From IMG/VR virus record IMGVR_UViG_2870479586_000001, positions 1 through 58,638 of that record: a DNA stretch of 58,638 nucleotides; one strand, 5' to 3'. The stretch is from a virus. Taxonomy: Duplodnaviria > Heunggongvirae > Uroviricota > Caudoviricetes. Positions 6,001-9,000 of the stretch are shown piece by piece. Within the stretch, counting starts at the first letter, position 1. Each line of letters starts with the position of its first letter. Made by a program: the position numbers.

Positions 6001-9000
6001 CATGCGCCCCTGAAACTCAACATCGTCATCGAACGCACGGGTAATGGCTTTTTTGCTGACCCCGTGGCGTTGCAAATGATCGATGCATAGCGATTCAAAC
6101 AGGTGCTGGGGCAGGCCTTTTTCCATGTCGTCTGCCAGTTCTGCCTCTTTCTCTTCACGGGCGATCTGCTGGTAGTGACGCGCCCAGCTCTGAGCCTCAA
6201 GACGATCCTGAATGTAATAAGCGTTCATGGCTGAACTCCTGAAAATGGCTGTGGAAATATCGCCCGCGAAATGCCAGGCTGATTAGGAAAACAGGAAAGG
6301 GGGTTAGTGATTCAGGCCGTTGCCGCGTCCGTCGAGAAAAACTTCCACGAGCAAGTCACGGGTATAAGTGCGCTCGATGCCGCGATGCAGATAAAGCCGT
6401 CCGCGTAAATTAGCTGATGCAGTCCAGGTACCATCTTTGTGTTTGACCAGCATTCCTGGCATGACCGCACCGCGATTAACGGTCTGCGTTCCGTAATGTT
6501 GATGAACCATAAAAACTCCTGCCCGTAAGCTGGGCTGCTGAACATATAAAGACTTCTGCGCGTATTCAGGCGGTGGATGGCCGCCGGTTGTCATAACTAA
6601 GCCGCCTCGTTGAAGCGACTGAGGTATGAAGTGTTGAGTTGATTTCAGCTGGTCACACCGACGTTCACGCGTCCGCTTCACCCCCTCGCACTCCCCGGAG
6701 CCTGCTGAAATTCAAGCTGCGGATCTAAGCGGTCATCGCAACGGTGAATCAGGTGATTGCCGTATCGTTGTGTTGTTGCGACATGGTGATAATAGCTATT
6801 GCTATTGATGATATCAATACTTATTGCTATTGCTAGATGTGTTTTGATATTAAATGTTTGATAGCAAAAAGAATTAATTTTGTGACTTGCATCGCATAGC
6901 GATAACTGAAGTGAGGTGTGGTGGTTTTTTGAGTGGTGTGTGATGAGGGGAGGGGACAAAAGAAAACCCGGCACGGTGGCCGGGTTAACTTTTATCTTTT
7001 CTACTGGCAGCTGGGAATAATCCCCTGATAACACCAAGAAAAGCAGCGAATACATTAAGAGTAACAGCTGTTGTTACAGCCAAAACTACCTTATCGGAAA
7101 AAACCTTTATCCCAATGATAGAAAACCAGCCTTGAAAGAAAAGAAACAAAGCCCATCCGTAAAGTGATTTTTTTACGACACGGTACGCTTTTTCTGCCAA
7201 GATCTCACGAAGTTGCCTGTTTGACTTGGCATCTGCCGCTTTTTGAGCATTGAGGTCGTCACCTCTGGATATTCTTTCTGTAATTGGCGGCTCATCTTCG
7301 GCACTTGATACTTTCGATGAGCCTACATTTGTGCCACTGGGTATAGATATGCTATCAAACGACTTCATTAGTGAATATGCTTCGCCATATCCTCATGAGA
7401 AATGGGGCCACCATCTGCACTTCCCTTGCTCCATGCTGTACCAGGCGCATGTGTTAAGTTAGACAGTTCAGTACCTGAAAATTTCCCATATACTTCGATG
7501 ATTTTATTGATAAGAGCTTGAGCTTCTTCATCATCTTTTTGAATTGTAGGGGTGATTCTTTTTAATTCGCCATCACACTCTAAGATGACGCTAATCTTTT
7601 CAGTGATTTCGTTTGCGCCATACTTCTTCAACATATGATAAAGCGGTGGAATAACAGGCCCGAATTTCCATCTGGCGAAAAGATCATCAAAAAGCGGTGT
7701 GTTGTCGCGTAACTTTAAATGCCATGATTGAGTATAAAAAAGAAGCTTCTGGAGCTTCATTGGAGTCAGATTCTTTAACTCACCCTTTAAAGCCTTTTCA
7801 ATGAAGGCATTAGCAACCGCTGCAGCTGAGTAAGCCATGTTATGCCCCCTTAACTGTATAAATAACCAGTTGTGTAATGTTTGCATTTTACCTGAAAGGT
7901 AACTGTTAGTACATATTAATAACTTTATGTACATCCGTCACTTATAAAACGATAGGATTTATTGCTGTTTATCCTCATTGGACAGCATATTATTCTGGGG
8001 AGAGGTACTGGAAAGTTGTTTGCTATATATAGTGGTAGAGAGGCATAATTCAATACAACATAAAGTGTCATGGCGAGAGCTTTGACTATCGCCATCATTA
8101 ATATTGTCTATTATTTAGACATGGGATTAACCATGTTTCCTATACGTCTGCGGCATGCTCCCAATAACCTTACCGAAGATGAATACCCGGTTCATCTCGT
8201 CTTTCTCGATCGGGTCCCACGGTGAGTAGCTTTTGTTATCAGAGATAACCAGCAGTTTATCCTTCATCATTTGCAGGCGCTTTACATGGGCGGTGTCGTC
8301 ATATAGAAACGCATAGATGCCATCACCGTCGAAAGATTTAACAGTGATATCAACGAACAGCAGGTCACCTGGTTCGATCGTCCCTGACATGCTGTCACCT
8401 CGCACGTTAATGATGCGGATATTTTCCGCCTTCCTGCCATCGAACATGTGACGAGCATCGTCAAACGAGTACTCAACCGAGCGTAGAACTTCTACAAACT
8501 CACGGTTGATTACACCTGGCCCGGCACTGACTTCTATATCAAGAACGTCAATTTTGAAGTATTTGGAATGGCTGACAGCAGGCTTCCCTGATTGTTGACC
8601 GTCATTTCTCATCGGGCCTATGCCTGATGAGAGCCATTCTGTTCGAACACCCAATGCATTAGCTATTTCAACAATTTTTGTTGAGCCGCGCGCGTTGCCG
8701 CTTGTCAGTCTCCAGATTGTGGGTTGAGCTACGCCAGACGCCTTTGCAAGAGCGCCTTGAGACATTCCAGATTGTTCCATCGCTAGGTTTAAGCGATCAG
8801 CAAGAGTTTCTTTTTTCATAAGTTTTAATTTATACGCTTGCGTATTGATGGTCAAAACACGTTTTGCTATTGCTTGGATTAATACGTATTGCTATTATTC
8901 ATTCATTGCAATACCAATAGGAATTGATAATGACAAATCAAACCATTCAACTCGCAATCAGTATTACAGGTAGTCAAAAACGACTGGCAGATCTATGCGG

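What the first reader, a model, noticed from the sequence alone, without database searches (positions are those of the whole stretch)
6985..7934. Panacea-domain protein coupled to a two-helix membrane protein in the rexAB slot next to cI
Directly downstream of the cI-like repressor, where lambda carries rexA-rexB, sit two minus-strand genes whose stop and start overlap (TAATG at 7366..7370). The first (7368..7838) carries the motifs I associate with the Panacea/DUF4065 domain (MKLQKLLFYTQSW, FARWKFGPVIPPLY), described as a promiscuous antitoxin domain. The second (6985..7368) has a polar N-terminal half and two C-terminal hydrophobic helices, as expected of a membrane-depolarising effector. 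An AT-rich gap with a TTGAAT-17-ATATAT promoter candidate separates the pair from cI, and a hairpin terminator follows it. This is a candidate prophage-encoded toxin-antitoxin or abortive-infection module that, to my knowledge, is not a described system.
Basis: partly seen in the sequence, partly recalled or inferred. Interest (0 to 1): 0.85.

Follow-up and report, generated by a model that had tools for sequence, protein, structure and literature searches.

The report
Prophage PanA–PanT membrane toxin–antitoxin cassette
Next to the repressor gene of an E. coli lambda-like prophage sits a two-gene toxin–antitoxin cassette (a Panacea-domain antitoxin plus a small membrane toxin) that is a new, untested relative of a pair already proven in E. 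coli, so it is real and sensibly placed for phage defence but it is not a new kind of system.

Summary
PanA (7368..7838, minus strand, 156 aa) matches Pfam SocA_Panacea at E=5e-21. Its stop overlaps the start (TAATG) of a 127-aa protein with a disordered polar N-terminus and a C-terminal two-helix hairpin. The pair lies between cI and the oL/pL-like operators, before the backbone terminator. That is the position rexAB holds in lambda. In sister phages this slot carries other defence cargo (PDC-M11, an R-M system).

The claim "not a described system" does not hold. PanAT modules with small membrane toxins were described and validated by Kurata et al. 2022, including an E. coli pair (PanA WP_000287252.1). 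The partner here is a remote homologue of that validated toxin: BLASTP is not significant, but profile-profile comparison gives 90-97% probability (E 1e-6 to 4e-10). In all 33 other loci examined, a PanA gene sits directly upstream of a partner-family gene. Both genes are under purifying selection.

Best reading: a type II PanAT cassette with its own conserved leader. The toxin depolarises the inner membrane unless PanA binds it. The likely role is Rex-like abortive infection, or alternatively prophage addiction. Toxicity and defence are untested. Verdict: new member of a known kind, moderate interest.

The parts
7368..7838 (-). panA: standalone Panacea-domain antitoxin, 156 aa
   Evidence: Pfam PF13274 E=5.1e-21. 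The NCBIfam SocA equivalog scores 92.8 bits, below its cutoff of 190. It is 36% identical (E=3e-25) to the validated PanA WP_000287252.1. Invariant W57, GPVI 60-63, LS 125-126, TH 129-130 and W136 across 9 PanAs.
6985..7368 (-). panT-like toxin candidate, 127 aa: disordered polar N-terminus, basic juxtamembrane helix, two-helix membrane hairpin, basic tail
   Evidence: No Pfam, NCBIfam or PADLOC hit; matches PHROG 33656, function unknown. The TM2 motif TxAVTLNVFAAFLGVIRGLF is invariant. hhalign to the validated PanT family gives 90.4% (E=1.4e-6) and 96.7% (E=3.7e-10).
7366..7370 (-). TAATG stop/start overlap, consistent with translational coupling of panA and panT
   Evidence: Sequence; ORF coordinates.
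7839..7955 (-). Cassette leader conserved in three unrelated insertion contexts. Candidate promoter GTGACG (7941-7936), 17-nt spacer, TAATAT (7918-7913). Palindrome TTACC-N5-GGTAA (7902-7888). RBS AAGGGGG.
   Evidence: Alignment of the window with L003 and L005 upstream regions. The promoter matches 8 of 12 consensus positions, which is below the scan threshold. Function is inferred.
7956..8126 (-). AT-rich spacer between cI and the cassette.
   Evidence: GC 0.33. No minus-strand terminator-like site here. Not conserved with other cassette copies.
6965..6986 (.). Bidirectional intrinsic terminator that closes the immunity-region slot; it is part of the phage backbone
   Evidence: The same hairpin and flank follow a different cargo in phage Lambda_4C10. 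The flank 6900-6990 matches 1046 E. coli genomes.
6783..6850 (-). oL/pL-like region: operator-like TATTGCTATT repeats and the leftward promoter candidate TTGATA-17-TATTAT (6817 to 6789)
   Evidence: 49-nt repeat shared with the cI-cro intergenic region. Promoter matches 10 of 12 positions. Motif enrichment: 12 matches against 3.1 expected, with exact copies only here and at oR.
8127..8819 (-). cI-like repressor (HTH plus S24 peptidase), same strand as and upstream of the cassette
   Evidence: Pfam Peptidase_S24 E=1.3e-18 and HTH_3. RefSeq CDS WP_001295669.1.
8848..8919 (.). oR-like operator repeats between cI and cro

Best explanation
This is a PanA-PanT type II toxin-antitoxin cassette carried as accessory cargo in the immunity region of an E. 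coli lambdoid prophage.

Shown: panA encodes a standalone Panacea domain. The downstream, translationally overlapping gene encodes a small protein with a disordered N-terminus, a basic juxtamembrane helix and a two-helix hydrophobic hairpin. This protein family is always found directly downstream of a PanA gene. It is a remote homologue of the E. coli PanT that was experimentally shown to depolarise and permeabilise the inner membrane.

Inferred mechanism: both termini of the toxin face the cytoplasm (positive-inside rule). PanA binds the N-terminal and juxtamembrane segment and keeps the toxin from inserting or oligomerising. When PanA is lost or switched off, the invariant TM2 (polar N105, R115) assembles into a leak or pore. 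That collapses the membrane potential and stops growth.

Inferred expression: the cassette is transcribed in the lysogen from its own conserved leader, from PRM read-through past cI, or both, and transcription ends at the backbone terminator.

Inferred biological role (about 0.4 on its own): Rex-like abortive infection or exclusion of superinfecting phages, with Panacea acting as the sensor. The confidence figure given here refers to the molecular identity (a PanAT module with a membrane-acting toxin), not to the defence role.
For: The Panacea domain is well above the Pfam cutoff. In all 33 other loci examined, a PanA gene lies directly upstream on the same strand: 24 species genomes, 4 metagenome contigs and 5 other E. 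coli contexts. Both genes are under purifying selection. The toxin architecture comes from hydropathy and AlphaFold2. Homology to the validated family: hhalign 90.4% with E=1.4e-6 over 82 columns, aligning the basic helix, TM1, TM2 and the GLF-x-S-x-K tail in register; with the broadened family, 96.7% with E=3.7e-10 and reciprocal HMM hits of 38-49 bits. The comparator is pinned: its PanA is exactly WP_000287252.1, and its partner genes are WP_000019186.1 and WP_000019187.1, which I take to be alleles of the validated WP_000019185.1 from the same 182-aa length, the same locus and the same 22-nt gap. The published phenotype of that pair is depolarisation plus SYTOX uptake, neutralised by PanA (PMC8832971). 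Standalone Panacea was modelled to contact the N-terminal region and the pre-TM helix of the membrane toxin of Bartonella choladocola, and interface mutations abolished neutralisation (PMC10440598). Position: between cI and the oL/pL-like repeats, with no terminator between cI and panA. The same slot holds PDC-M11 in Lambda_4C10 and an R-M system plus PanAT in Stx2a phages. A cI-like gene lies upstream on the same strand in Dryocola, Erwinia and Tatumella loci. The leader is conserved across three insertion contexts. Low GC, 0.33-0.43 against about 0.52 in the flanks, marks the cassette as acquired cargo.
Against: There is no experimental evidence for toxicity, neutralisation or defence for this subfamily. 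Pairwise BLASTP to the validated PanT is not significant (E=0.11), and profile matches between transmembrane proteins can be inflated by composition. TM1 is only borderline hydrophobic (about 1.5 on KD19), no dedicated TM predictor was available, and the AlphaFold2 model is of moderate confidence (pLDDT 67.8). Neither protein matches any PADLOC defence model. No paper in the searched library shows a PanAT with a membrane toxin defending against phage. The promoter is only a weak consensus match.
Confidence: 0.72

Rival explanations
1. The pair is a pure addiction or stabilisation module. It is a toxin-antitoxin pair, but its only role is to penalise loss of the prophage, ICE or cassette (post-segregational killing). 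It has no effect on incoming phages.
For: The cassette travels between unrelated mobile contexts: the immunity region, the prophage end next to dinI, and an ICE. It has no PADLOC hit. Kurata et al. validated PanATs only as toxin-antitoxin pairs. Decay typical of TA loci is seen in one ICE copy, where PanA is kept and the toxin is lost (L007).
Against: The cassette is repeatedly placed in a slot that otherwise carries defence cargo, namely PDC-M11 and an R-M system. A chromosomally integrated prophage gains little from segregational killing. TA systems are increasingly found to act as defence systems (PMC10440598).
Confidence: 0.25
2. PanA works as a SocA-like type VI antitoxin. It is a proteolytic adaptor that hands the partner protein to ClpXP for degradation, rather than a stoichiometric inhibitor.
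For: PF13274 is named after SocA. The NCBIfam SocA_antitoxin model gives a partial hit, E=1.9e-26.
Against: That score of 92.8 bits is far below the equivalog cutoff of 190. The partner is a membrane hairpin, not a SocB-like protein. PanAs were shown to form complexes with their toxins, and standalone Panacea neutralises directly.
Confidence: 0.08
3. The 127-aa protein is not a toxin. It is a membrane-located superinfection-exclusion factor, for example one that blocks DNA injection, and PanA is a regulator or chaperone for it.
For: It is a small inner-membrane protein expressed from the immunity region, and lambdoid phages do carry exclusion proteins near here. The extreme conservation of TM2 could reflect a specific protein partner.
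Against: It is obligatorily paired with an antitoxin domain in all 33 other loci, including ICE and non-prophage contexts. It is homologous to a demonstrably toxic PanT.
Confidence: 0.07
4. The pair is a holin/antiholin-like lysis-timing device of the phage.
For: There is a weak PHROG holin hit, E=0.039, over 18 residues. The protein has a two-helix topology.
Against: The hit is insignificant. The phage has its own holin, endolysin and Rz cassette in the near-identical reference prophage of strain S51. The pair is on the repressor strand, upstream of pL, so it belongs to lysogenic rather than late transcription. The cassette also occurs in ICEs.
Confidence: 0.02

Closest known systems
E. coli PanA-PanT (PanA WP_000287252.1, PanT WP_000019185.1; toxin cluster T3 of Kurata et al. 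2022, PMC8832971)
   Same: Both are bicistronic with a standalone Panacea antitoxin first. The PanAs are 36% identical. Both toxins have a polar or acidic disordered N-terminus, a basic pre-TM helix, two C-terminal TM helices and a GLF-x-S-x-K basic tail. Profile-level homology is 90-97%. Both are found in E. coli prophages.
   Different: The toxin here is 127 aa rather than 182 aa, and pairwise similarity is not significant. The gene junction is a 1-nt overlap rather than a 22-nt gap. The location is the cI-pL slot rather than the prophage end. This subfamily has not been tested experimentally. It is rarer in complete E. coli genomes: 42 carry it at 80% coverage or more (11 near-identical), against 79 for the validated type.
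Lambda RexA-RexB
   Same: Both are two-gene cargo on the cI strand between cI and oL/pL, closed by the immunity-region terminator. Each consists of a cytoplasmic protein plus a membrane protein. In Rex the output is membrane depolarisation and abortive infection (established knowledge).
   Different: There is no sequence relationship: no Pfam or PADLOC Rex hit. The gene logic also differs. RexA is an activator and sensor of the RexB channel, whereas PanA is expected to be an inhibitor. The cassette has its own conserved leader. RexB has four TM helices, against two here.
Bartonella choladocola PanA-PanT (cluster T12 / NetFlax D11) and Aggregatibacter phage S1249 T12 pair
   Same: A standalone Panacea is paired with a small membrane toxin. 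Neutralisation through the toxin's N-terminal region and pre-TM helix was tested by mutagenesis. The S1249 PanA is 40% identical to the window PanA.
   Different: The toxin here shows no detectable similarity to the S1249 T12 toxin (hhalign probability 0.4%).
Hok/TisB-type small membrane toxins and the RosmerTA RmrT membrane toxin
   Same: All are small membrane-inserting proteins that dissipate the membrane potential. RmrTA has been shown to defend against phages (PMC10440598).
   Different: The families are unrelated, and the antitoxins differ (an RNA, or an ImmA/HTH protein) rather than being Panacea.

Membership tests
PanAT (Panacea-antitoxin TA systems) | The antitoxin carries a Panacea/DUF4065 domain (PF13274) above the Pfam gathering score | tested here: met
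   76.1 bits against a cutoff of 25.7, E=5.1e-21, covering 112 of 113 model positions
PanAT (Panacea-antitoxin TA systems) | A conserved, adjacent, co-directional two-gene architecture with reciprocal association of the partner with PanA | tested here: met
   PanA lies directly upstream of a partner-family gene in all 33 other loci examined; the window pair overlaps at TAATG
PanAT (Panacea-antitoxin TA systems) | The partner is toxic when expressed alone, is neutralised by the cognate PanA, and forms a complex with it | not testable with these tools
   Needs toxicity and neutralisation assays and a pull-down
PanT cluster T3 (validated E. coli membrane PanT) | Sequence homology to WP_000019185.1-type toxins | tested here: inconclusive
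   BLASTP E=0.11. hhalign 90.4% with E=1.4e-6, and 96.7% with E=3.7e-10 plus 38-49-bit reciprocal HMM hits using broadened profiles. Homology at superfamily level is likely. Membership of the published FlaGs cluster could not be checked: neither the window pair's accessions nor six accessions from other E. coli variants are in the stored, truncated table.
PanT cluster T3 (validated E. coli membrane PanT) | Charged or polar N-terminal region followed by a C-terminal region with predicted TM helices | tested here: met
   the published description is
PanT cluster T3 (validated E. coli membrane PanT) | Causes membrane depolarisation and permeabilisation | not testable with these tools
   Needs a DiSC3(5)/SYTOX Green assay
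RexAB abortive-infection system | Proteins homologous to RexA and RexB | tested here: not met
   No Rex hit in Pfam or PADLOC for either protein
RexAB abortive-infection system | Located on the cI strand between cI and oL/pL, upstream of the immunity terminator | tested here: met
SocAB type VI TA | The antitoxin is an equivalog of SocA (NCBIfam NF047745) | tested here: not met
   92.8 bits against a cutoff of 190; the partner is a membrane hairpin, not SocB-like
Known anti-phage defence systems (PADLOC-DB v2) | A match to any defence-system protein model | tested here: not met
   Only NsnC at E=0.014 for PanA and nothing for the partner
Phage holins | A significant match to a holin family and a location in the lysis cassette | tested here: not met
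   PHROG 881 at E=0.039 over 18 residues; the lysis genes of the near-identical reference prophage lie elsewhere

The most novel reading that the evidence does not exclude
The cassette is a Rex-like abortive-infection system of lambdoid prophages. In this reading the standalone Panacea domain directly senses a component or consequence of infection by a foreign phage and releases a two-helix pore-former. Because it sits in a genetically tractable lambda-like immunity region, it would give the first defined trigger for the Panacea domain, whose sensory role Ernits et al. 2023 could only hypothesise. It would also show that the cI-pL slot is a general exchange site for depolarising abortive-infection modules.
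Probability: 0.3. Interest if true: 0.6.

Novelty: new member of a known kind. Interest (0 to 1): 0.35.

Why it matters
If it is functional, this would be a natural, lysogen-expressed PanAT in the best-understood phage regulatory region. That makes it a convenient system for two open questions: what activates Panacea antitoxins, and whether membrane-toxin PanATs defend against phages. It also documents that the cI-pL slot of one lambdoid backbone swaps between PanAT, PDC-M11, an R-M system plus PanAT, and at least one unannotated gene pair. That is useful for mining new defence genes. Variants of the cassette sit in Stx2a-converting phages of O145:H28 and related STEC strains, so any effect on superinfection or induction could bear on Stx phage ecology.

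Tried and rejected
1. I looked for the validated toxin by accession in E. coli hits to the window pair. It was not found, because those hits are other variants of the window's own family.
2. The published control primers for the STEC pair have no exact DNA match in any fetched locus. However, the peptides they encode (FGGIV, FVVSGL) occur in the PhiR47_1 PanA and PanT, which led to the right locus. Identity was then confirmed through the accession WP_000287252.1.
3. I suspected cluster T6 of Kurata's table because it has Enterobacterales members with -1 overlaps. That was rejected: T6 is the MazF-like RNase cluster.
4. The T12 toxin of Aggregatibacter phage S1249 shows no similarity to the partner.
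5. Neither the window pair's accessions nor six accessions from other E. coli variants are in the stored, truncated supplementary table.
It was rerun with alignment A3.
7. Rfam found nothing in 5500-10000.
8. The PDB sequence searches found nothing for either protein.
9. The literature searches found no test of this subfamily and no PanAT membrane toxin shown to act in defence.
10. The holin idea was rejected.
11. dN/dS ratios could not be computed because synonymous sites are saturated, so only pN and pS are reported.
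Full report
**1. What is in the sequence**

The window is a lambdoid E. coli prophage. Its left 16.5 kb is 99.5% identical to a prophage of strain S51 that is integrated next to proBA and tRNA-Thr.

On the minus strand, downstream of a cI-like repressor (8127..8819; HTH plus S24 peptidase), lie two ORFs.

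- 7368..7838 (156 aa) is preceded by AAGGGGG. The 188-aa extension to 7934 is only the longest ORF, and RefSeq also starts the gene at 7838.
- 6985..7368 (127 aa) overlaps the first ORF by one base, at TAATG.

The first protein matches Pfam SocA_Panacea over the full model length (E=5.1e-21, 76 bits, cutoff 25.7). It scores below the cutoff for the SocA equivalog model (92.8 against 190 bits).

The second protein has no Pfam, NCBIfam or PADLOC match. It hits only PHROG 33656, which has no known function.

**2. The partner protein**

Hydropathy analysis shows:

- a polar, slightly acidic segment at residues 1-45;
- a basic segment at 46-68, with 7 K/R;
- an aromatic hydrophobic stretch at 69-87 (mean KD about 1.5);
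- a six-residue loop;
- a strongly hydrophobic stretch at 94-118 (KD up to 2.08);
- a basic tail.

AlphaFold2, run with a 37-sequence alignment, gives a disordered N-terminus, one long helix at 38-84 and a second helix at 92-117. pLDDT is 72-87 across the hairpin and 67.8 overall.

By the positive-inside rule, both termini would face the cytoplasm. This is an inference.

In 39 family members, 24 columns are invariant. Nearly all of TM2 (T-x-A-x-T-L-N-x-F-A-A-F-L-G-V-I-R-G-L-F) is among them, as are R51, R54, K60 and Y62 in the pre-TM helix. That degree of constraint goes well beyond a generic membrane anchor.

**3. Both are real, selected, coupled genes**

Five E. coli variants of the pair differ at 15-38% of non-synonymous sites, while synonymous sites are saturated at 73-93%.

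A profile of the partner family finds 320 representative clusters at E<=1e-3 and 126 at E<=1e-10 among 1.84 billion representative proteins.

A Panacea gene sits immediately upstream, on the same strand, in every other locus examined:

- 24 of 24 species genomes: Citrobacter, Serratia, Pantoea, Erwinia, Tatumella, Lonsdalea, many Pseudomonas, Vreelandella and Stutzerimonas;
- 4 of 4 metagenome contigs of distant members;
- 5 of 5 other E. coli contexts.

**4. Relation to what is known**

Kurata et al. 2022 (PMC8832971) named the Panacea domain and validated nine PanA-PanT pairs. Three of these have membrane toxins. One is an E. coli STEC O31 pair: PanA WP_000287252.1 and PanT WP_000019185.1, toxin cluster T3. 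Its toxin is described as having a charged N-terminus and C-terminal TM helices. It depolarises the membrane and admits SYTOX Green.

I located that locus in two steps.

- Phage PhiR47_1 carries genes annotated PanA and PanT with the published 22-nt gap. The peptides encoded by the paper's control primers (FGGIV, FVVSGL) occur in these two proteins.
- In complete E. coli genomes the PanA of this locus is exactly WP_000287252.1. Its partner carries WP_000019186.1, WP_000019187.1 or WP_021563277.1. I take these to be alleles of the validated toxin, because they share its 182-aa length, locus and (in two of the three genomes) the 22-nt gap; the accession WP_000019185.1 itself was not retrieved.

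Comparison of the window pair with this validated pair gives the following.

- The two PanAs are 36% identical (E=3e-25).
- The window partner against the 182-aa PanT is not significant by BLASTP (E=0.11).
- The two family profiles align over 82 columns, with the basic helix, TM1, loop, TM2 and the GLF-x-S-x-K tail in register (hhalign 90.4%, E=1.4e-6).
- With the broadened family, hhalign gives 96.7% (E=3.7e-10), and reciprocal HMM hits score 38-49 bits.

I conclude that the partner is a shorter, divergent member of the same toxin superfamily. I add the caveat that profile scores between membrane proteins can be inflated by composition.

It is unrelated to the T12 toxin of Aggregatibacter phage S1249.

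**5. The slot**

A 49-nt segment at 6783-6831 repeats the cI-cro intergenic segment at 8848-8896.

The motif TATTGCTATT (one mismatch or fewer) occurs 12 times in the window against 3.1 expected. Its exact copies lie only at these two sites.

A strong leftward promoter candidate (TTGATA-17-TATTAT, 10 of 12 positions) lies at 6817 to 6789. The pair therefore sits between cI and an oL/pL-like region, on the cI strand. That is the position of rexA-rexB in lambda.

The hairpin terminator at 6965-6986 is real, but it belongs to the phage backbone. The same hairpin and left flank follow a different cargo in phage Lambda_4C10, and the flank matches 1046 E. coli genomes.

The cargo in this slot varies between related phages.

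| Phage | Cargo in the slot |
|---|---|
| Lambda_4C10 | PADLOC candidate defence pair PDC-M11A/B (E=2.9e-133 and 6.8e-52) |
| PhiR68_2 | an unannotated 341-aa plus 149-aa pair |
| Stx2a phages of O145:H28 | a type II R-M system followed by a PanAT variant |

A cI-like gene also precedes the pair on the same strand in Dryocola, Erwinia and Tatumella.

The cassette has low GC, 0.33-0.43 against about 0.52 in the flanks.

**6. Expression**

No minus-strand terminator separates cI from panA, so PRM read-through is possible.

Independently of that, about 115 nt upstream of panA (7839-7955) are conserved between the window and two copies inserted elsewhere: next to dinI at a prophage end (L003), and next to ssrA (L005). 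The conserved stretch contains GTGACG-17-TAATAT (7941-7913) and a TTACC-N5-GGTAA palindrome whose arms are conserved while its loop varies.

This suggests that the cassette brings its own promoter. The promoter is weak by consensus (8 of 12 positions), and its function is not shown.

**7. Mechanism**

Shown: domain identity, architecture, obligate pairing, selection, and position.

Taken from the literature on homologues: PanAs form complexes with their toxins. A standalone Panacea domain neutralises the membrane toxin of Bartonella choladocola through the toxin's N-terminal region and pre-TM helix, a model supported by interface mutagenesis.

Inferred for this pair: PanA holds the cytoplasmic N-terminal and juxtamembrane part of the toxin. 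Once free, the toxin inserts as a hairpin, oligomerises through TM2 and dissipates the membrane potential.

The biological role is either abortive infection or exclusion of foreign phages (about 0.4) or addiction (about 0.25). An autonomous promoter would let the phage keep PanA supplied after its own induction. That is consistent with a defence cargo that must not kill its carrier.

**8. Verdict**

It is wrong on novelty of kind.

This is a new, untested subfamily of the described PanAT membrane-toxin systems. Near-identical copies occur in 11 of 5426 complete E. coli genomes, and 42 genomes carry the family at 80% coverage or more. The validated type occurs in 79.

Interest is moderate. The main value is as a tractable setting in which to test whether, and how, Panacea senses phage infection, and as a marker of a defence-cargo hotspot.

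Noticed in passing
L012 (phage PhiR68_2, PV340576.1) 3585-5040, minus strand; equivalent to window 6985-8126: On the same backbone the cI-pL slot holds an overlapping 341-aa plus 149-aa gene pair with no Pfam or PADLOC match. Since the slot elsewhere carries PDC-M11, an R-M system and PanAT, this pair is a candidate undescribed defence system.
   Followed up: partly
L011 (Lambda_4C10, LR595861.1) 3588-5004: The same slot holds the PADLOC candidate system PDC-M11A/B. The B protein has an ASCH domain. The cI gene has the same length as in the window, so the two phages may share immunity while carrying different cargo.
   Followed up: partly
L002 and L004/L006 compared with the window pair: The PanA and toxin similarities are incongruent. 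The Stx2a-phage PanA is closest to the window and L003 PanAs (76-80% identity), but its toxin is closest to the ICE-borne toxin (65%, against 55% to the window toxin). This suggests recombination between antitoxin and toxin, or within the toxin, inside the family.
   Followed up: partly
L007 (E. coli RM11911 ICE) 2655-3428: This ICE copy has decayed. PanA is fused to foreign N- and C-terminal sequence, giving a 257-aa protein, and the toxin gene is gone. Keeping the antitoxin while losing the toxin is typical of TA erosion.
   Followed up: no
window 7888-7902 and 7960-7987: A TTACC-N5-GGTAA palindrome in the cassette leader has conserved arms and a variable loop across three contexts. It could be an operator or an RNA hairpin. 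A one-mismatch copy of the cI-operator-like motif (TATTGCTGTT, 7960-7969), inside a 9-bp inverted repeat, lies just upstream of the candidate -35 hexamer. This could be a link to cI control or could be chance.
   Followed up: no
window 6512-6780: No N-like antiterminator gene is annotated between the pL-like promoter and the kil-like gene in the near-identical S51 prophage, although a Q antiterminator is present. No Rfam family matches 5500-10000.
   Followed up: no
window ~48500-58300: There is a second lambdoid early-region remnant. Its exo-bet-gam block is about 98% identical to the first prophage (window 49284-51367 matches L001 6413-8495). It then joins directly to replication-gene sequence, so its immunity region appears to be deleted. 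The window is therefore not colinear with strain S51 beyond about 40 kb.
   Followed up: no
window ~16700-40500 (aligned to L017): The late region is not lambda-like. It has Mu/P2-type contractile-tail and baseplate genes, a pin invertase with invertible tail-fibre genes, and an iss (bor-like) serum-survival lipoprotein gene beside the lysis cassette, at about window 18.0-18.3 kb by coordinate transfer from the S51 annotation.
   Followed up: no
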